This document shows positions 1 through 11,354 of a DNA stretch of 64,000 nucleotides, in pieces. Under the pieces are notes generated by a model that was given only the letters and a program-made list of their open reading frames with translations, was not told where the DNA came from and searched no databases. A program made the translations under genes and the position numbers. Position 1 is the stretch's first letter. Each line of letters opens with the position of its first letter. The DNA comes from Macrostomum lignano (lineage: Eukaryota), in the NCBI GenBank assembly GCA_002269645.1, contig NIVC01003840.1, positions 1-64,000 of the forward strand, given 5' to 3'.

Positions 1-1640
1 CTAAATTCGTCAATAAAAATGTAGCGCACACTTTCCATGCTCTTGCATCTCCATTAGGGATTTCTTGCCAACACCAGCACTAAAATTTACATTCAATTTC
101 AAAGCCGAGTGCAAAGTTTCGCCTGCAATATTGAAAGCGGCTACGCCTGTTGATGCCATAATTCTGCATCTTGATTCTCCAATCAACCGACGCAATGTAG
201 AAATCAAGTAGCTTTTTCCAGTTCCAGCGCTACCATACAAATTGCTTTGAGAGGCTCCGGCTTTTCGCCTTGGTTTTCTTCGGCTAGTCTTGAAAGCTGC
301 AAATGACTTTCAATTAGGTTGTACATTTCTCGCTGCCGAACATTAAGCGATTCAACACTGTTTATCGGCATGTCAGCGACCTCTCTTGCGCCAAGTTTTA
401 GGTCGCTACTTAAAAACGCCTTTGCTTCTCCAACCGTTGGAAACTGGCCGCCACTAGCTGCGCTCCAGTCAAAATTTTCTGGCGGCTTTGGCAATTGATC
501 TTCTGGACAGGCCAATAGATTTCTCTCGCGATGAAGTGCCCCCACTGCAACCATCCAATCTTCTTGCTCTTCGTGCTCATAAGTTGGCTGAGCAGCAGAT
601 TGCGCATTTGCGTTGGTCATTTCGGGTAGCTCCGCAACTGCTTCGACTTCTTCGTCAGCTTCGTCGTTGCGCAAATCGTCCAAATTGGGCAGCTGCAGCT
701 CGCATCGATTCTCAGCAGGCATGGCTTCGTACGCTTGCTGCCAGCTTGTGTGCAAACCTTTGGCTTCTCGCTCATTTCGCCAACAACTGTACAACAAAAC
801 CTGCTGCGATAATAGCCTTCGCGTCTTTCGTCTGATTGCTCATTCGGTCGAAAAAATGGACTGATTAGCAAAACTACTTGTTTCGGCCTTTTTGTGCACC
901 TCCCATTAGGGCTGAGACAGTAGTCGGAAAAGAAACGAAACATTGTTACATTTTCCAAATTCTTTGCACGCTTTGAATACTTGTCGCAACTATTCCTGCA
1001 AACACCCTTTTCCTCCACTGCGCGGGTTTCGCCAGTCTGAACAAAAACAAATTCTCGCGAACCCTTGTACATTGACGTCTGCAATAGCAAATGCATTGCC
1101 TCTTGCGCCGAATAATCACGCGCTCCAACTTGCGCCATCAAGTGTTGTTGTACAACACGCCTTGCAGTGTTGCTACGCTGAAAATTGTTATCGGCATTCT
1201 GTTCTGCATTATCTTCCAACTCCTTATGAAGACGCTTTGTCAGCTCCGCCATATAATCCGACTCCTTTTCGCTTTTTGTCGCATACTTGATCAAATAGCG
1301 AATCAAATTCTTCACGGACGAAATCATTTGAACATCGACATTGGCTCTCCACATGCACAGCAACTGCGGACTGTGAGAAATCATTCGCTCGTCGTTGCGC
1401 TGCGTCTCAACTTGCCAATTTAAACGGGATACTCGCTTTGCAACAGTCTTTTCCTGCGGCTCGCGCGGATACTTGAATCGGCACTCTTGTTTGCCTTTTA
1501 CTGTTCGCAAGCACTTTTTACTGCAAATAGTGTGCCTCTCTGTCAAATGCGAAATTAACTGCAAATCTTGCTTGTCATTTTCAATCTCTTCCGGTTTCAG
1601 TTGAGCTGGATGACCTTGACCTGCTAAACTGCCATTCAAA
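1..1640 (-). CDS. C-terminal half of Rep and start of the Pif1 helicase, split across three frames
   Basis: ORFs 617-1681 (YLIKYATK, RDYSAQEA), 204-797 (LNVRQREMY) and 10-240 (GSAGTGKS) continue one Rep/Hel polyprotein. Confidence 0.9.
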
Positions 1641-4600
1641 CTTGATTTCCATAATCCGATTCGTCCATGGCCAAATTCCAACTACAGATGTACTTGTCAA
1701 CAAAGCTCGTCAATTCTTCTGCATTCAATGTATTCGATGTCACATCAACACCATCTGGCATCCAAATGCAACCGTGAACGTGTGGACTTCCGCGACTCTG
1801 ATATATGCGAAACCAATAATCGTTTACTTTCCAGTGCTCGACCAAAAAACGTTTCAAACATGTTTCAAATCGCAACCAAAACACAGTGTCTGCCATTCCG
1901 GGATCTTTTTGCAACTTTGACAACATTTCTGCTCTTAGTTCTACATTGCTTTCATATTGCTCTGCATCGATTCCCCAGGCATGCTGCAACTCTGGCCAAT
2001 GTACATCTGCTGCCGATAGTGTCACGAAAAAATGAGGAACACCAAGCGTTCGAATCATGGCTTCCAATTGCCGTCCTTTACTCTGCCAATAAGCGCTTGT
2101 GCCTCGCAAATCTGATGCTCGAACTGACACGCTAGCCAATACTGCCGGGTCATTTAGTGCTTCAATCATTTCCTTGGCACTTAATCCAGCATACTTGTTG
2201 TCGTGTACAAACACGCGACCAACTTCCAGCGCCCTCCAACGCATCACCATATTTTCAATGTAAAATTTAAACCGCAAATCGGTACGAAATCTTGGACACC
2301 GGAATTGCATCAAATGCTTTGCATAGTCGCCCAAACTTAGTCCAAAATTACGTGGCGTACTATAATCTCCTGCTCCATCCGGAAAGAGATGAGGATAAGC
2401 CAATGTAAAATATCCTTCATCCTGAAATTCGTTTACCGGCTCGTTGCTTCTTGCTGGCCATTTCAATTTTTCACTCAAAAATTTGTCTCGTACTGCCGAT
2501 TCCAATCGACGCAAAGGAGTCTCCAACAGCGAACTAATTGTTTCCTCGAGCTCGTTCGTCTCGTCCGCATTTTTTTCTACTTGTTGCTGCAATCGCTCAG
2601 CTCTGGCTGAGCCGCCTTCTTGCTGTGCCGCCTCGAAATTCACTTCATTGTCAGACTGCATTTCGACAATCATACCTTCTACTTGATGAGCATAACCATC
2701 TTCAGGCAGATGTAGCAACGCATCATTATTCATTGAAACCTGATACTGTCTAAAGTACTTGTTGTTTGCCATTAAATAGCGCATCGCATTAGTCACTTTG
2801 TCGCGTCGAACTCGCAAATTGTTCATTGTGCCGCTTTGCGCTTCTCCAGGCTGAACACGGGCTCTTTCGTCGTACATTAAAACAACTGGCAGAGATCGTC
2901 TTGGCAGCTCTCGCAAAACGTGCGACTGATCTTGAGGCAACATGATTCCGTGTCCTCTCGATTTTGTTTGCTTTTGGGGAAAAATTTGTACCACAACAAT
3001 AACCGACAAAACTGGCGAAATCAACATTTGCTCTGCTACACTCAAATCTTGCAAATCTTCTGGCTGCTCCAACATCGGAATCGCATTGTTTTCTTGGCTA
3101 AACGATTTCGGCTCATTGTCATCTCTGAAACAACGATCGCACATGTCTTCAGAATCGATGCTAAAATATTTTCCAGGAAACTTTTCCCTACACACGTAGC
3201 ACTGTTTCAAATGTGATACTTTTGTTATGTTTTCATTGAAAAAGTCTTGCCTCATCTTTTTGAACTGGTCTGTGAACGGATTGCGAAGGCACTTTGGCAG
3301 ATTAGGATCTCCGATTTCATCTTCAACAATTGGAGCATCTTGAGCGCTCTCTTCTGAAGTGCTGCTCTGCGGAACATTTTCTTTAGCTGGCTGCTGCTCC
3401 ATTGTAGGCCGCTTTCTGGGTGACGAACGGATCGCTTCATCAGGCTTCTCCTGAGTAGCACGTGTCTTTCGTGGTGATGAATACGTAGAAGTAGCTGGAA
3501 TATTATCAGACTGACGTTTATCTTGCTGCTCCTGCTGCAAAGGTGCCGTCTTCCTAGGCGACGATCGAACGGGTTCGCAGATATGATTTTCTGCGTTTGT
3601 CAATCTCTGTTTCCGTGGTAAAGAATTTGCATAGTTGACCACTTGCTGCTGGTTTTTCAAACGCTCGCTGCGACGAGTAGGAGCACTTGGTACAACGTCG
3701 CTCTTCTTTTCTCGACCTCTTCCTTTTTCCAAATGGCAAGAAACGCTTGAAACCGCCGAAACTGAGTCGCCACAACCGATGCAACTGCAACATGGTGCTC
3801 TCCGAGTGCGACTGCTTCTTCTCAATAAGCTCTGACCAGATACACTAGAGGCTGCAACAGACACAGACTCTAATGTGTTTGCTTTAGCGCTCAGTCGACT
3901 ACTCCGACGCGTAGCGCAACTTGCCTTCCCAACATCCTTTTTACGCCGACTGCGCCGCGGAACATTTGATGGCACGGACTCTGACACACGATCACTTTTA
4001 ACTGACTCTGACACATGCTCAATTTCAACTGACTCTGCGCTATCCTCCGCGTCAAGATCGACATTCCAATTCCAGACAGAGTTGTTCCGATCCCGAAGCA
4101 CTTCATATGAATTCGGATGCGCAAACAAACTCGTATTATTTTCCAAGGACTTTGCTTGATTTCTACAACGTCCCTTCCAATGCCTACTTTGAACTCGGGT
4201 CCAGTCTGCAACCTTTTCAAAAGGCGTCATTGGTGGAGCTGGAGGTGGCATCATTACAACAGGATCTTCGACAACATGAACATTCTCGTTGAGAGGGGGC
4301 ATTTCCACATTCTTGGCGCTCAAATCTCCTTGGCCAGTCGGCCGAACTGAGCTTGCTTCATTAACTTCCAAATCATTGACACGAACGATTTCGTAGTGTT
4401 GACTACCAGGATTAAACAACAATCGAATAGTAGCCAAACGTTCTCCAATATTCGGTCGGGAATAATGGCCAGGCCGCGCTAGATTAAGCATGTTTGACTG
4501 ATAAATAAACACTTCTAGCCGCAACAGTTCACCAATTAGTTCTGGAACTCCGCATGGCACGTACATACGGGGACGCCTTGTATCGTCGCGCACTTTTTCC

Positions 4601-4889
4601 CAATTCAGTCCTGTTTGCATAATTCTTTCCTGATTATTGACATCGCGATGCACCCATTGCTCGAATTCTGCAGCAACCGCATCTCGAAAATCTTCTACGC
4701 TTAGCGATTGATAGGCGGAAAAACCTGGCAGTTCTTGTAATTGTCTCAATATGGCCGTGAAAAAACAGTTGCCGTCACCTCGTACATTCTCAACGCGACA
4801 CGAAGAAAAAGGAACCCATACAGGTTGGACTTGTACAGCAGCAGTTACATGACCTTCGGCAAAATCCATTGCAGTAGCACCTGTTTCAT
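1636..4889 (-). CDS. Main exon, frame 1: OTU cysteine protease, basic low-complexity linker (SPRK repeats), Zn finger, N-terminal half of Rep
   Basis: 1089-aa ORF in the track; acceptor ttcttttacag ends at 4890; motifs GDGNCFF, FVTLSAAD..W.EL and RGSPHVH. Confidence 0.9.
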
Positions 4890-5074
4890 CTGTAAAAGAA
4901 TACAACTCTTAAACAGTGAGGTATGATAATTTTAAGGAATTGAGCATTAATTGTATTTTGCACAAGTCGTAAACACTAAAATCTAATTTTCAATATTCGC
5001 AAGCAAAGTCAGATGTAAGAAAGAAAATTAACTTGTACTATGCATAGAAATTCAATAAAAAATAAAACTCTCAC

Positions 5075-5446
5075 CAGCACTCAAGTAGCCTATAAGTTGC
5101 TCATTGTAAGCAGCACCAGAATTGGGCACTTCAGCATCACCTTCGACCACGGGGTATTCCGAAGCAGCCAGAGCGTCGGCCAGAGCAGCATCATGTTCAG
5201 CTAGCAGGGCAGCCAGACCAGCCTCGTCCAGCTTAATCACAGACTCAGTTTTAGCAGCAGCATCAGCAGAAGCACCAGCTTTAGTCCCAGCAGCGGCAAT
5301 AGAAGAGGCAGCAGCAGCTTCCGGTTGTACATCTGGCTCTTGAATCTGTTCTTCGCCAGCAGTTAAATCACCGACAGCAGCAACTTTAATATTATTCTTG
5401 GAGCGGCTCCAGTTTTTCTTCTTCGGCCGTCCGCACTTTTTCGCAC
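5075..5446 (-). CDS. Predicted exon 2 of the Helentron gene (AT-hook-like CGRPKKK, then an Ala/Glu-rich segment)
   Basis: Acceptor ttaaacag|GT at 5447; donor G|gtgaga at 5074; 372 nt open; phase 1 at both ends, matching the next acceptor. Confidence 0.7.
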
Positions 5447-5481
5447 CTGTTTAAAGTCACAGTAAAAAAGAAATTTATAAA

Positions 5482-6111
5482 TCTACCTATATATATATAT
5501 ATATATATATGTCTGTCCATCTATTTCGCTCTAGAGCGTGCCATTCTTGATCAATTTTGATAGCGTTTTTTCTAAACTATTGCAGATTTTGCACTGATTA
5601 TACAGTGGTCAAAATTTCTTAAATCTGCTCAAATTCTAAGGGTGTTAAACATTCGAAAATAGAGTTTCTATAATTATTTTAATGATCTGTCAAACAAGGT
5701 CAGATTCCAATTGAATTTATTCCCTTTGTCGAAACTATTCAGTCGAAACTACTCAGTCGAAACTATTGAGTTCACACTATTCAGTCAAAACTACTCAGTC
5801 AAGATTATTAAGTCTAAACTATTCAGTTGTAACTATTCAGTTGAAATTATTCTGTCTGTCAAAACTATTCAGGCGAAACTATTCAATCTAAACTATTGAG
5901 TGTGAACTATTGATTTGAGCTGCGTCAGTTAAGAGTTTGAAAAATTCACATTTTTAGACATCTGAAAAACACTTTTTTACAGAATTACCTGTGAACTATT
6001 CAGTGTGAGTTATAGTGTGAACAATTGAGATTTATTGTTTGGTAAATAAATTGTGTAGTGCAGGAACTTTTTAGTTTGTCTGTTGCCCAAATGGGCAGCC
6101 AAGAATGCTAG
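5482..6111 (+). mobile_element. Non-autonomous canonical Helitron (630 bp) nested in intron 1 of the Helentron gene
   Basis: Begins 5'-TC after an A; (TA)n near the 5' end; hairpin TGCCCA-AA-TGGGCA at 6084-6097; CTAG at 6108-6111 followed by T; no TSD; internal AAACTATTC-type short repeats at about 5730-5910. Confidence 0.72.
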
Positions 6112-6225
6112 TAAAAGCTGGTTTCCTAAGGTGTGAATATTAATAATAAAGGTAGGATTGCTTTGAAACTATTCCTGAAAGTAGCACCTATCACCTGCAA
6201 GTTGCAACAAATGTACAAAACTTAC

Positions 6226-6304
6226 TATTGGCAGCAACAGAAGAAGCACTTGTATCCTTGTTAATGCTAGTGTTGTCCTTGATGCTGTTTTTGTCGTTGC
6301 CCAT
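6226..6304 (-). CDS. Predicted first coding exon of the Helentron gene (MGNDKNSIKDNTSINKDTSASSVAAN)
   Basis: ATG at 6304, 5 nt after acceptor ttatttag; donor A|gtaagt at 6225 is phase 1 and matches exon 2. Confidence 0.6.
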
Positions 6305-7796
6305 CCTGTCTAAATAAACATGTTAGTAAATATTTCAGAATGATAAAGAAACTAATTAGCTAAACACAGAAAACATGCTACTCTTTACCAAGTTAACTCA
6401 ACTCTTTTCTGGTGGCAAATTTAGTTAAACTACGAACACTAGCACTGCTACTGGATTGTGGATTAATATGCTGCAGCATAATATACTGGCATATAGGCGG
6501 TGTGTGCCATGTAGTTTTTGTGCTTTCAACATTTTTTCTTGGATTTAGTGCATATTTTCTAGAGTTTTTTCAGGCATATTCCATGTTTTTGTACATGCTT
6601 CTAGGAATTCTATATCAGCAAAAAAACATCCCTTGGTAAAAATTCACCATAAACTAAGTGTCTAGCACTTTCAAGCATTGCTTGATATAAGGAGCATTGG
6701 CATGTATATATTGTCTAGCAAAAATGCTAAATTTATAATAAATTGAGCAGAATTTATAAAAAGTGTCCACAAACTTCTACCATTAAGCAGAGTACTACAG
6801 ATATTTGTACTATGCTAAACATATGAAGAAATAAAAAGAATACTTACTTCAAAACTAAAGTCTTAAGTCAAAATTATGCAAACAAAAGGAAAATTCAAGT
6901 TAAATTTGACTGATAACTACAAAATAAAATGTGAAAGGATGAGTACTTTTAAAAGATATATGTAAATATGACTATAATTTATAAAAATATGGAGCAAAAA
7001 GCAAAGCAGAGAAAAAAAATGTAAATATTTGGCAGAATACAATTAATTAGCTATAAAATAATATTAAAGTACTATACTTCAGTTATATTTCAAATAAAAT
7101 TTGAAGCTTACACTTACAGTGTAAAACTGATAACAATTGAATATATTACAATTAAAACTTGTACTTGTAGAATATAATATATTGTACAATAATTATATAT
7201 AATGTAGTAGGATACGAATAAATAGCGTAACAAAACCGAATATTATAGCTACAGATTGAAGCTTGAAAATATTTCAGATTTAGATAGCGTTTGCTTAGAT
7301 AAGTTGCTTTGAAAATTTGGGGTCAAATTTGTCCTACAGCAATAAACTACTGTTAACATAACCGATTTAAATTTAAATTTTTGTAGAAATTATAAGGAAC
7401 AGAACGACTGAAATGTACAGTTTAATTATTTCAAAATTAAATAATTTCGAATTCTATTTTACCTTATTGCTTTCTTCAATTAAATTTTGTTATACAATTT
7501 ATAAAATGCCTATTTTCAAAATATACCTCAAAAAGTAAGTTCAACAGCTTTAAAAATGCGCACGTTTTTACACTTCACGGCTCCAAAAAGTCACCATAGA
7601 AGATTTTTGCAGGACGCAAGACTTTTTACGTTACAAAATAGCACTTTTATGTGCATTTTTTATTCAGTTTCAAAAGGCTTTTTAGTTACCTATTTGGTAT
7701 TTTTTGTTTTAAAGATTTTTGCGAAATCAGGTCATTTTAACTTGTTACGAAACTGTGGACCCACACTTTTACGCAACGCAATGCGCATGATGTCAT

Positions 7797-8860
7797 CTTA
7801 AAGCACTTGCTAAATGCTATTTATTGACACTACACTGAAGGCCTGGCGTAGGATAGTTAATAAATGGCAGCGTGAAATATAGCAAAAAAACGCATAGTAC
7901 CGGAACCTCGTAATTCGGTAAAATGTTAATAGCGTCAAACTACGAATTTTCGCACACTAACGAAGATGGCAGTCATCTGTACGTGTTTACTGGGCACAAT
8001 AGTGCTCTTGGAAGCTAAGAACCTCATAGCGAAAATTAATATATTTTCCGCCCTATGTAGTGCTCAAATGGGTTGTTTTTGCACAAAATCACGTTTTTCG
8101 ATTTTGAGAGTCAATTAAAAATTTTTTTTGCAACTGACAGACGTGAATGTCACTTTTTCTGAGAGTATTCATCTAGATGTTTCTAATAAGTACTAATATG
8201 GGTCATTCTTATGCTTCACCTATCCTTAGTATAGGTACAAAGTCATTATTTCATTTCCAGCAAGTCACGTGACCTGGCCTGAGGTGTACAACGCATCGTG
8301 CAATGCCAGCGAACATACACTCAAATTAAAGCACTTTTTAAATGCTAACTATTGACACCACACTGAAGGCCTGGCGTAGCATCGTTAATAAATGGCAGCG
8401 TGAAATATAGCAAAAAAACGCATAACACCGGAACCTCGTAATTCGGTAAATGTTATTAGCGTAAAAATACGAATTTTCGCACACTAACGAAGATAGCAGT
8501 CATCTGTACGTGTTTACTGGGCACAATAGTGCTCTTGGAAGCTAAGAACCTCATAGCGAAAATCAATAAATTTTTCACCCTATGTGTGCTCATATAGGTT
8601 GTTTTTGCACAAAATCACGTTTTTCGATTTTAAAAGTCAATTATAACAAAATTTTGCAACTGACAGACGTGAATATCATTTTTTCTGACAGTAGTCATCT
8701 AGGTGTTTCTAATAAGTACAAATTTTGGTTCATTCTTACGCTTCACCTATCCTTAGTATAGGTACAAAGTCATTATTTCATTTCCAGCAAGTCACGTGAC
8801 CTGACCTGAGGTGTACAACGCATCGTGCAATGACAGCGAACATACATTCAAATTAAAGTA
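7797..8860. repeat. Two diverged ~530-bp tandem units (A1, A2)
   Basis: aagcactt..cactgaaggcctggcgtag..ggaacctcgtaattcggt..gtcacgtgacct recurs at about 7800 and 8330. Confidence 0.9.
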
Positions 8861-11262
8861 CATCTAAAATGTAGTTCAATGACACCAAGCGCGTCGCGCT
8901 CCGGTAATCCGCTCAAAAGTTACAGGCTAAAAAGTATGTTCGATATGCAAGCCCCCCGTACCGTCGTTAAAGTACATTTCTGTACCGGCAGCGACTTCAA
9001 TAAACTAAGACGAAATTTCAAAATATACATATTGTGCGCAATTTAGTTGTGCACCTTGCCTAAAAAGTCTGATTTTCCTAGCATGTCGTCGTTTCTTATT
9101 TTTTGTACATTTGTATCATGAAAAATACATAAAAATAGCCTAAATCACGTTTATCGACTTTAGCAGTGTATGGCTCAGAGTCAGTGCAACGAAACGGCTC
9201 AAAATGTATTATAAACATGTAGATCTTACCTAAATGACCGCATTCATGTACTTTTTAGAGTCTCGCAACAAGGTTGAATTTCCTTTATTTCGGTTCGAAT
9301 ACCTACCCGTCGAATATTCGAATGTAATTAACAGGTGCGAATGTACAGTTAAAGTGAGTATCTTGGTTAAAGTCGTGCGTCATGTAAGAGTCCCAGGTGC
9401 CATTGTTAGAATGACGCAGCTCAAAGGTCGCGCTGACGCGCGACCTTTGAGCTGCGTCAGTTGAAAGTTGATAAAAATGCGCATTTTTTGACACTTAAAA
9501 AACACACTTTTACAGAATTACCTATCAAGGTAAGCATTTAGCGGAAAATAACCAATCAGTGTCTTGAAGGTCTGAAAATTCGCCAAAAGTTGGGTTCAAT
9601 CAATTTTTGACTCCATATTGTGAATCCTTATTTTTTGAGATTCAAGATTTGGACGGGTCTAAAAAAAGTCACTTTTTTGTTGCCATGGCAACCAAGACGC
9701 GTTGCTATGGAACTTTCACGTCACACATCTTGTAGCCCTAAATGTTTTACGTCCATAGAGGGGTCACACATGGTTTCATCTCAAGTGGTTTTAACTCTGC
9801 ATCAATTTTATTTTCTAAAACGTTGATTTTACGTTGGGGGAGTCTCCGGGACATCTTATCTCGGTCTCGTTTGTCCGGAAAAATTGCCAACGAGGAGCGA
9901 AGCGAGCGAAGCGAGGTTGTTTTTGCACAAAATCACGTTTTTCGATTTTAAAAGTCAATTATAACAAAATTTTGCAACTGACAGACGTGAATATCATTTT
10001 TTCTGACAGTAGTCATCTAGGTGTTTCTAATAAGTACAAATTTTGGTTCATTCTTACGCTTCACCTATCCTTAGTATAGGTACAAAGTCATTATTTCATT
10101 TCCAGCAAGTCACGTGACCTGACCTGAGGTGTACAACGCATCGTGCAATGACAGCGAACATACATTCAAATTAAAGTACATCTAAAATGTAGTTCAATGA
10201 CACCAAGCGCGTCGCGCTCCGGTAATCCGCTCAAAAGTTACAGGCTAAAAAGTATGTTCGATATGCAAGCCCCCCGTACCGTCGTTAAAGTACATTTCTG
10301 TACCGGCAGCGACTTCAATAAACTAAGACGAAATTTCAAAATATACATATTGTGCGCAATTTAGTTGTGCACCTTGCCTAAAAAGTCTGATTTTCCTAGC
10401 ATGTCGTCGTTTCTTATTTTTTGTACATTTGTATCATGAAAAATACATAAAAATAGCCTAAATCACGTTTATCGACTTTAGCAGTGTATGGCTCAGAGTC
10501 AGTGCAACGAAACGGCTCAAAATGTATTATAAACATGTAGATCTTACCTAAATGACCGCATTCATGTACTTTTTAGAGTCTCGCAACAAGGTTGAATTTC
10601 CTTTATTTCGGTTCGAATACCTACCCGTCGAATATTCGAATGTAATTAACAGGTGCGAATGTACAGTTAAAGTGAGTATCTTGGTTAAAGTCGTGCGTCA
10701 TGTAAGAGTCCCAGGTGCCATTGTTAGAATGACGCAGCTCAAAGGTCGCGCTGACGCGCGACCTTTGAGCTGCGTCAGTTGAAAGTTGATAAAAATGCGC
10801 ATTTTTTGACACTTAAAAAACACACTTTTACAGAATTACCTATCAAGGTAAGCATTTAGCGGAAAATAACCAATCAGTGTCTTGAAGGTCTGAAAATTCG
10901 CCAAAAGTTGGGTTCAATCAATTTTTGACTCCATATTGTGAATCCTTATTTTTTGAGATTCAAGATTTGGACGGGTCTAAAAAAAGTCACTTTTTTGTTG
11001 CCATGGCAACCAAGACGCGTTGCTATGGAACTTTCACGTCACACATCTTGTAGCCCTAAATGTTTTACGTCCATAGAGGGGTCACACATGGTTTCATCTC
11101 AAGTGGTTTTAACTCTGCATCAATTTTATTTTCTAAAACGTTGATTTTACGTTGGGGGAGTCTCCGGGACATCTTATCTCGGTCTCGTTTGTCCGAAAAA
11201 ATTGCCAACGAGGAGCTACGCTCGCTTCGCTCGCTTCGCTCCTCGTTGGCAATTTTTCCGGA
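8598..11262. repeat. Near-perfect 1318-bp tandem duplication ending in a GC hairpin; probably a TE-derived unit
   Basis: Identical ORFs at 9234/10552, 9303/10621 and 9620/10938 (offset 1318); second copy starts at 9916; hairpin at 11192-11262. Confidence 0.95.
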
Positions 11263-11354
11263 CTGCACTTCGACCTAACTAGCTAATGTTAGTCAGCTTA
11301 AGTTGAACAGCTGCTGTAGCCCAACAACCGTTGCAAAGCACACCCAAAAGTCTC

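What the first reader, a model, noticed from the sequence alone, without database searches (positions are those of the whole stretch)
9874..11262. Tandem duplication whose junction carries the flipped form of the terminal hairpin
Seen: copy 2 ends in a hairpin with arms TCCGAAAAAATTGCCAACGAGGAGC and GCTCCTCGTTGGCAATTTTTCCGGA. Copy 1 does not end with the direct-repeat version. Its last 42 nt (9874-9915) are the exact reverse complement of 11221-11262, including the CCGG variant found only in the right arm. It then jumps back 1318 bp via a 2-nt AG microhomology. Inference: synthesis folded back through the hairpin and then switched template, resembling the flip/flop ends of rolling-hairpin replication. 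This could be a footprint of how these elements terminate or amplify.
Basis: partly seen in the sequence, partly recalled or inferred. Interest (0 to 1): 0.7.

Follow-up and report, generated by a model that had tools for sequence, protein, structure and literature searches.

The report
Hairpin-break scars in a young Helitron
About half the copies of a very young rolling-circle jumping gene in this animal genome have their front end rearranged at a DNA hairpin, often duplicated with part of the hairpin turned backwards, which is likely the scar of a hairpin-sealed broken DNA end that was cut open and patched when a copying attempt failed, not a virus-like flip/flop end.

Summary
Window 1-11278 is one copy of a very young autonomous HLE2 (Helitron2-type) element. 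Its RepHel is on the minus strand, so the hairpin is at the 5' end, not a terminator. The feature recurs: 17 of 30 insertion loci are rearranged at this hairpin or a second one; 12 distinct junctions keep an inverted loop piece (5-17 of 21 nt, never more), all on the body side. No complete flop end exists, so parvovirus-like flip/flop is rejected. Best reading (0.55, inferred): a Rep-initiated displacement fork collapses; the displaced coding strand becomes hairpin-capped, is opened in the loop and end-joined to the re-synthesised 5' segment. Main rival: host-only hairpin breakage (0.27). Two sister families share a GC-GAA-GC-capped 5' hairpin and show related scars. The window's own junction is in two contigs but was bridged in none of four public runs; two sibling junctions are in one run, one of them spliced. 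Duplicated 5' termini are known in Fusarium Helitron2; eight paper searches found no report of the inverted-loop scar. The scan had not noted this on other DNA.

The parts
11279..11282 (.). Target tetranucleotide CTAG next to the element 5' end (insertion at CTAGT^T)
   Evidence: 28 of 30 distinct flanks end in CTAG, and the empty site is seen in paralogues
11264..11276 (-). 5' subterminal inverted repeat (13 nt, 2 nt from the end); its partner lies about 30 nt from the far end, outside the window
   Evidence: far ends of 7 contigs
11191..11263 (-). 5' subterminal hairpin: arm A 11238-11263, 21-nt loop 11217-11237, arm A' 11191-11216; 26-bp stem with one G-T wobble on the coding strand; three GC-GNA-GC motifs on the coding strand only
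9914..11278 (-). Outer copy: element nt 1-1365, with intact terminus and target junction
9873..9915 (+). Inverted arm A plus 17 loop nt capping the inner copy (the scar); 9914-9915 is the 2-nt microhomology
8596..9872 (-). Duplicated part of the inner copy, which continues into the element body
10730..10777 (.). Second hairpin (22-bp perfect stem, 4-nt loop) in the outer copy; also a junction hotspot in other copies
9412..9459 (.). Second hairpin in the inner copy
7798..8887 (.). Older internal tandem duplication (527-bp period, 91% identity) shared by the family
5914..5990 (-). Old 83% copy of element nt 438-515 that ends inside the arm of the second hairpin; possibly an ancient scar of the same kind
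1..4908 (-). RepHel gene (weak OTU-like N-terminus, DUF6570, Helitron_like_N, PIF1), running off the window; split into four frames here by single-base indels, one 2015-aa frame in C2 and C3811

Best explanation
The junction is one of 12 inverted-loop junctions at the 5' hairpin of a very young HLE2 Helitron family, and is likely the repair scar of a failed rolling-circle copying attempt. Shown: element anatomy, junction structure, recurrence, hairpin hotspots, polarity. Inferred steps: (1) RepHel nicks the coding strand at the 5' end of a donor (chromosomal copy or circle); the flank primes leading-strand synthesis and the old coding strand is displaced, as proposed for Helraiser. (2) The fork collapses after x nt (47 nt to 7.5 kb; 1365 here), leaving one end with terminus plus nt 1..x and one end carrying the displaced strand. 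(3) Complementary synthesis on the displaced strand reaches the folded hairpin; the 15-nt 5' flap is removed and arm A is sealed to the new strand, giving a hairpin-capped end. (4) A nuclease opens the loop; the 5'-ended arm A' is resected and the 3' overhang (arm A plus up to 17 loop nt) is trimmed, possibly until a GCGAAGC mini-hairpin blocks it. (5) End joining with 0-3 nt microhomology or templated inserts fuses the ends, giving [1..x][inverted loop, inverted arm, body]. Rearranged copies can probably still move.
For: Recurrence: 17 of 30 insertion loci are rearranged at one of two hairpins, 15 as direct 5' duplications. 14 of 15 direct-junction inner starts fall in the hairpins, 1.5 expected (0 of 2 million simulations); outer breakpoints are scattered. 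Remnants are 17,17,17,17,16,16,15,15,15,13,7,5 nt (9 of 12 in a 3-nt window, P 8e-5). 9 of 9 informative long remnants carry the arm-A base (P 0.004); 12 body-side versus 0 flank-side (P 0.0005). GCGNAGC motifs occur on the coding strand only and end at loop nt 5 and 14; 11 of 12 remnants end 0-3 nt beyond them (resistance to 3' exonuclease from PMC13037366, passages). Youth: 67 substitution calls in 424 kb, 15 of them the arm swap itself, yet over half the loci are scarred. Yeast data say spacers over 8 nt are poor break substrates unless ssDNA is under-protected (PMC8053094, passages). The fork model is that of PMC5876387 (passages). Templated inserts at junctions in C567, C1546, C3581, C4943, C3095. 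Outer and inner copies share two private substitutions in C68. One junction sits at two loci with different flanks (C630, C815). Two sibling junctions are in run X1, one across a removed 96-nt GT-AG intron.
Against: No step is shown biochemically, and Rep involvement is inferred from rate and polarity only. In sister family B the inverted loop also occurs on the flank side (L191, L194; L216 partly), and no kb-scale 5' duplication was seen in 28 irregular plus 30 intact loci; this looks like ordinary hairpin breakage. Family A polarity could simply reflect the more stable coding-strand fold (-31.9 vs -28.2 kcal/mol). No locus was found with both an intact and a duplicated allele (0 of 6 informative contig pairs), so timing is unknown. 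In C1189 outer and inner copies differ at one shared variant. The mini-hairpin match was noticed after the fact. The window's own junction was not bridged in four runs, and C3811's far flank does not match the empty site, so the assembly is imperfect inside this family.
Confidence: 0.55

Rival explanations
1. Host-only fragility: the hairpin folds on the lagging-strand template or as a cruciform during normal replication, is cut into a hairpin-capped break and opened, and the flank-side end copies a variable tract from the sister chromatid (abortive gap repair) before end joining. RepHel plays no part.
For: Hairpin-capped breaks at inverted repeats are established in yeast (PMC8053094, passages). 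Transposition-independent gap filling at breaks inside TEs is described (PMC8277862, passages). Family B shows lesions on both sides of its hairpin in 24 of 28 irregular loci. The second, internal hairpin is also a hotspot. It predicts the same final sequence.
Against: Over half of near-identical copies are scarred, which needs an extreme rate for a 26-bp stem with a 21-nt loop. Family B lesioned copies are not clearly older than intact ones (9 of 17 with no private substitution; P 0.21; the intact set was biased to best hits). Family A shows no flank-side scar and no duplication of flank DNA.
Confidence: 0.27
2. Double template switch without a break: the nascent minus-sense strand switches at the 5-bp stem base to the other strand, copies arm and loop backwards, then re-primes 1.3 kb behind.
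For: It explains the constant arm-A base and the microhomologies. C3095 has a terminal hairpin with corrected arms and a normal loop, as quasi-palindrome correction gives.
Against: It gives no good reason for the sharp limit at 17 nt. Blunt joins, long templated inserts and a free inverted-end fragment captured in a host duplication (C645) point to broken ends.
Confidence: 0.1
3. True flip/flop termini from rolling-hairpin replication with terminal resolution.
For: A long hairpin with eared loop lies near a terminus, and an HUH protein is encoded.
Against: 0 complete flop ends among 38 terminus matches of family A, 30 of family B and 31 of family C. The hairpin is internal to the terminal repeat. 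Insertions have precise Helitron2 ends, and family C has precise head-to-tail tandems.
Confidence: 0.03
4. Library or assembly artefact (polymerase fold-back chimeras, collapsed repeats).
For: The window's junction is not bridged in four public runs. Contigs carry indel noise, and C3811 appears mis-joined inside the element.
Against: Identical junctions recur in 5 of 5 pairs of contigs that share a locus and are rearranged. Two sibling junctions occur in run X1, one in spliced form. Sister families show analogous scars.
Confidence: 0.05

Closest known systems
HLE2 / Helitron2 / Helentron / DINE-1 (PMC11417382, PMC4067079, PMC2374699: passages)
   Same: 13-nt asymmetric subterminal inverted repeats, small 3' hairpin, insertion at T|T, DUF6570 plus RepHel, internal minisatellite, 5' secondary structure.
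   Different: No endonuclease domain found. The 5' hairpin is a separate 26-bp stem internal to the repeat, with three GC-GNA-GC motifs; strong CTAG target preference; half the copies are scarred there.
Multiple 5' termini of Fusarium FoHeli elements (PMC5148889: passages and section 10)
   Same: Helitron2 copies with duplicated 5' ends that go on to transpose; GAA-loop hairpins at the 5' end.
   Different: There the duplications are under 200 bp and are explained by self-insertion. Here they reach 7.5 kb, the inner copy lacks its terminus, starts in the hairpin and often has inverted arm and loop. The paper's supplementary Table S6 was not read and might show similar junctions.
Helraiser peel-and-paste fork (PMC5876387, PMC4778049: passages)
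   Same: Supplies the proposed substrate: a nick at the left end, leading-strand donor repair, and lagging synthesis on the displaced strand; about 50% aberrant circle junctions were reported.
   Different: [quoted passage not shown]
Hairpin-capped breaks and palindromic nucleotides (yeast inverted repeats, PMC8053094 passages; V(D)J and hAT footprints recalled, not tested)
   Same: Off-centre opening of a sealed end leaves an inverted remnant that end joining retains.
   Different: The remnant here is up to 43 nt, comes from a pre-existing large-loop hairpin, and is coupled to kilobase tandem duplication.
Parvovirus flip/flop termini (recalled; only search listing seen)
   Same: Loop inversion of a terminal-region hairpin by strand exchange.
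   Different: No complete inversion, no equimolar isomers, and the hairpin is not at the molecule end.

Membership tests
HLE2 (Helitron2/Helentron group) | RepHel with HUH Rep and Pif1 helicase | tested here: met
   Pfam Helitron_like_N 1e-29 and PIF1 7e-27 in a 2015-aa frame; window pieces
HLE2 (Helitron2/Helentron group) | Short asymmetric terminal inverted repeats (12-16 nt) | tested here: met
   13-nt repeat 2 nt from the 5' end and about 30 nt from the 3' end in 7 far ends
HLE2 (Helitron2/Helentron group) | Stem-loop after the 3' repeat | tested here: met
   6-bp stem with 3-nt loop
HLE2 (Helitron2/Helentron group) | Insertion at T|T without a true target duplication | tested here: met
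   5 of 7 far ends read CTAGT then T, 2 read C or G; empty site matches with one CTAGTT
HLE2 (Helitron2/Helentron group) | DUF6570 marker domain | tested here: met
   E 2.5e-18; marker status from PMC11417382
HLE2 (Helitron2/Helentron group) | Placement in the HLE2 clade of a RepHel tree | not tested
   no tree was built
Helentron in the strict sense | Apurinic endonuclease domain | tested here: not met
   no Exo_endo_phos hit in 2015 aa at E 0.05
HLE1 (canonical Helitron) | 5' TC, 3' hairpin-CTRR on the coding strand, A|T insertion | tested here: not met
   coding strand starts with TT and carries terminal repeats; the base beyond CTAG varies
Rolling-hairpin (parvovirus-type) flip/flop termini | Two complete inverted-complement terminal isomers | tested here: not met
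   0 complete inversions in all fetched family A DNA; 0 of 30 and 0 of 31 in families B and C
Rolling-hairpin (parvovirus-type) flip/flop termini | Linear ssDNA with hairpins at the molecule ends, resolved by Rep nicking | not testable with these tools
   needs extrachromosomal DNA; in integrated copies the hairpin is 15 nt inside the end
Hairpin-capped break repaired by end joining | Inverted remnant with a sharp upper length limit | tested here: met
   12 remnants, maximum 17 of 21 nt
Hairpin-capped break repaired by end joining | Microhomology or templated inserts at the joins | tested here: met
   resemblance to polymerase-theta products from PMC5730883 passages and recall
Hairpin-capped break repaired by end joining | Physical capped intermediate and nuclease dependence | not testable with these tools
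   needs experiment

The most novel reading that the evidence does not exclude
Long HLE2 Helitrons fail in a large share of mobilisation attempts, and their conserved GC-GAA-GC-capped 5' hairpin, a probable ssDNA recognition or second-strand priming signal, seals the displaced strand into a hairpin-capped linear end. Opening and re-joining it duplicates the 5' end in place and releases fragments that are captured at breaks elsewhere. This would be a natural record of the donor replication fork and a built-in engine for 5'-end diversification, internal repeat growth and host duplications.
Probability: 0.35. Interest if true: 0.75.

Novelty: new variant of a known kind. Interest (0 to 1): 0.55.

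Why it matters
How Helitrons make the second strand and repair the donor is open, and no HLE2 mechanism was found tested in the papers read. This family gives a dozen independent, strand-informative scars with a defined substrate (73-nt hairpin), apparently intact 2015-aa transposase frames and near-identical copies. The donor-fork model therefore becomes directly testable. It offers an alternative to self-insertion for multiple 5' termini, and a route to the variable left ends and internal repeats of Helentron/DINE-1 elements.

Tried and rejected
Complete flop ends: none. Hairpin as 3' terminator: rejected by gene orientation. Self-insertion of a whole copy: the inner copy lacks a terminus, and no remainder follows in C336 or C3811 (C3811 may be mis-joined). 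Rep nicking in the loop: the position after loop nt 17 does not resemble CTAGT^T (inspection only). Reads: the 3-kb lay was blurred by the repeat; the 141-nt lay found no bridge; all runs were contigs, none raw reads. Allele test: 0 of 6 informative same-flank contig pairs differed (5 rearranged pairs, 1 intact pair). Variant phasing was too sparse and noisy; T2021G and C4230T lie in internal repeats. Seven further RepHel loci were uninformative: five end at contig ends, one at a gap, one is 5'-truncated at nt 1484. Age test in family B was not significant. Paper searches found no report of inverted-loop junctions in Helitrons; the library lacks most subscription papers and no supplements were read. 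Earlier-finding look-ups by sequence and by words returned nothing. The host exon at C645 gave no Pfam hit under E 0.1.

Full report
Observation. Window 9873-9915 is the exact reverse complement of 11221-11263 (43 nt); 8596-9898 repeats at 9914-11216 with one mismatch, the arm variant; AG at 9914-9915 fits both sides. The hairpin has 26-nt arms and a 21-nt loop, of which 17 nt are inverted at the junction.

The element. A search of the own genome found about 40 near-identical copies of the hairpin end (lower bound). Window 1-4908 encodes a RepHel on the minus strand. In contig C2 it is one 2015-aa frame with DUF6570, Helitron_like_N and PIF1, no endonuclease hit, and a weak OTU-like N-terminus below the Pfam cut-off. 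The window's frame breaks are single-base indels against C2 and are absent from C3811, so they are probably consensus errors. Far ends from 7 contigs show a 13-nt inverted repeat matching nt 3-15 of the hairpin end, a small stem-loop and CTAGT. 28 of 30 distinct 5' flanks end in CTAG, and the empty site is present in paralogues. These are HLE2 features as defined in PMC11417382 and PMC4067079 (passages). The C2 copy is 15,448 bp with a long 3' minisatellite. The hairpin therefore lies at the 5' end of the coding strand: arm A nt 16-41, loop 42-62, arm A' 63-88; a second hairpin is at 502-549.

Census. Exact patterns gave 54 arm-plus-loop matches, 62 body anchors and 38 termini. After merging contigs with the same flank there are 30 insertion loci with a terminus, plus one terminus-less fragment (C645). 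17 of the 30 are rearranged at one of the two hairpins, 15 as direct duplications [1..x][restart]; 13 show no such change in the stretch seen (3.4 kb in the shortest case). Outer breakpoints are scattered from 47 to 7547. 14 of 15 direct-junction restarts lie in a hairpin against 1.5 expected (the C4217 case was left out of that test). Twelve distinct junctions at 11 loci keep inverted loop sequence of 17,17,17,17,16,16,15,15,15,13,7,5 nt (the 13th row is the noisy second contig of the window's locus). All ten long ones carry the arm-A base; nine are informative because C3095 already has it at its terminus (P 0.004). The two short ones keep the arm-A' base. All 12 face the body; none faces the flank, and no complete inversion exists. 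Other restarts are at 69, 71, 78, 85, 93, 528 and 535 without visible inversion. Joins are blunt, have 1-3 nt microhomology, or carry inserts copied from nearby sequence. The family is extremely young: 67 substitution calls in 424 kb of redundant alignment, 15 of them the arm swap. One junction (3407 to 78) is at two loci with different flanks, so a duplicated copy probably transposed. In C645 a fragment 63-2554 with the inverted end sits at the junction of a host tandem duplication, 2-3 nt into an exon. In C174/C5259 a similar fragment lies inverted in the element's own minisatellite.

Reality of the junction. It is in two contigs (C3840, C3811). None of four public runs bridges it, but three of them show the empty allele at this flank, so they may lack the insertion. 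Run X1 holds the C1189 junction and the C645 junction, the latter with a 96-nt GT-AG intron removed. I infer that this contig came from cDNA, which is independent of the genome consensus though perhaps not of the animal line. Against: the window's far end is probably in C1769, while C3811 ends in another flank, so long-range joins inside this family are not fully reliable.

Sister families. Two other HLE2 families in the genome (B, 59% and C, about 70% Rep identity by association with fetched loci) also start at CTAG|TT and carry a 22-23-bp stem 16-25 nt inside the 5' end, capped by GC-GAA-GC on the coding strand. Family C arms vary in ways that often leave G-T wobbles on that strand (inspection). 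None of 30 B and 31 C termini is inverted. An exact pattern found one C locus (two contigs) with a body-side inverted arm and loop. For B, 69 body anchors and 63 termini led to 28 irregular loci; 24 have lesions in the hairpin, two have the inverted loop on the flank side, and none has a kilobase 5' duplication. Lesioned B copies are not clearly older (P 0.21). So the hairpin is a conserved coding-strand structure and a general hotspot, but strict polarity and large duplications are particular to family A.

Mechanism. The sequence arm A plus loop on the opposite strand is what results if the folded coding-strand hairpin is sealed to the complementary strand and then opened in the loop, leaving a 3' overhang. 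The constant arm-A base fits resection of arm A' and fill-in from that overhang. GCGNAGC motifs end at loop nt 5 and 14 on the coding strand and are absent from the other; such mini-hairpins resist 3' exonucleases (PMC13037366, passages), and 11 of 12 remnants end 0-3 nt beyond them. This match was noticed after the fact. The outer copy needs re-synthesis of nt 1..x. The Helraiser model, a nick at the left end with leading-strand donor repair and lagging synthesis on the displaced strand (PMC5876387, passages), supplies both ends if the fork breaks at x. Filled-in overhangs joined end to end are a known source of tandem duplications (PMC5730883, passages). I put this at 0.55. Host-only hairpin breakage with abortive sister copying gives the same product (0.27); the high scar rate in near-identical copies and the 21-nt loop argue against it (PMC8053094, passages), family B argues for it. 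A break-free double template switch (0.10), artefact (0.05) and true flip/flop (0.03) fit less well.

Novelty. The element is an ordinary member of HLE2. Duplicated 5' termini are described for Fusarium Helitron2, short and attributed to self-insertion (PMC5148889, passages and section 10). Eight full-text searches found no description of inverted-loop junctions or hairpin-capped intermediates in Helitrons; supplements were not read and subscription papers are not covered. PMC12001565, PMC13085455, PMC4778049, PMC8277862 and PMC2374699 were seen as passages only. Earlier scan notes for this genome concern other elements. Verdict: real, recurrent, a new variant of known behaviour, mechanism inferred; interest 0.55.

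Noticed in passing
L064/L090/L099 (G000:C645, about 132.9-135.4 kb): A 2.5-kb element fragment with an inverted hairpin end sits 2-3 nt into a host exon at the junction of a host tandem duplication of several kb; a spliced contig in run X1 reads from the host exon into the inverted hairpin.
   Followed up: partly
L030-L035, L072, L073 (G000:C3095:84-120 kb): A 35-kb cluster of direct and inverted element segments with many junctions at both hairpins, templated inserts and repeated blocks; its terminal hairpin has both arms made identical.
   Followed up: partly
L005/L055 (G000:C68:33-44 kb): A second 5' terminus lies inside a duplicated copy and breaks in the hairpin loop (nt 57), jumping to the 3' minisatellite.
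   Followed up: partly
L068 (G000:C2066): The terminus keeps only 14 nt, followed by a templated insert and an inverted 1-kb internal segment; a further 1.25-kb insertion with terminal inverted repeats and an 8-bp target duplication lies at element nt 2778-2785.
   Followed up: no
L156-L182 (family C): Precise head-to-tail tandem copies with one CTAG at each junction, as rolling-circle arrays would give.
   Followed up: no
L113 (G000:C172, about 699.6-700.1 kb): A family C terminus is followed by 76-83% matches to family A nt 251-348 and 457-548, including the second hairpin, which suggests shared ancestry or exchange of 5' regions.
   Followed up: no
L053/L054 (C48), L046 (C365): Internal deletions run from the RepHel gene into the 3' minisatellite, giving non-autonomous derivatives with intact ends.
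   Followed up: no
window:5052-5450 (-): A 132-aa Ala-rich open frame upstream of RepHel with splice-like borders and no Pfam hit; possibly an exon of RepHel or of a second gene.
   Followed up: no
window:13652-62898: The rest of the window is dense with unrelated minisatellite arrays (37 Tandem Repeats Finder rows in the window, periods 2-91).
   Followed up: no
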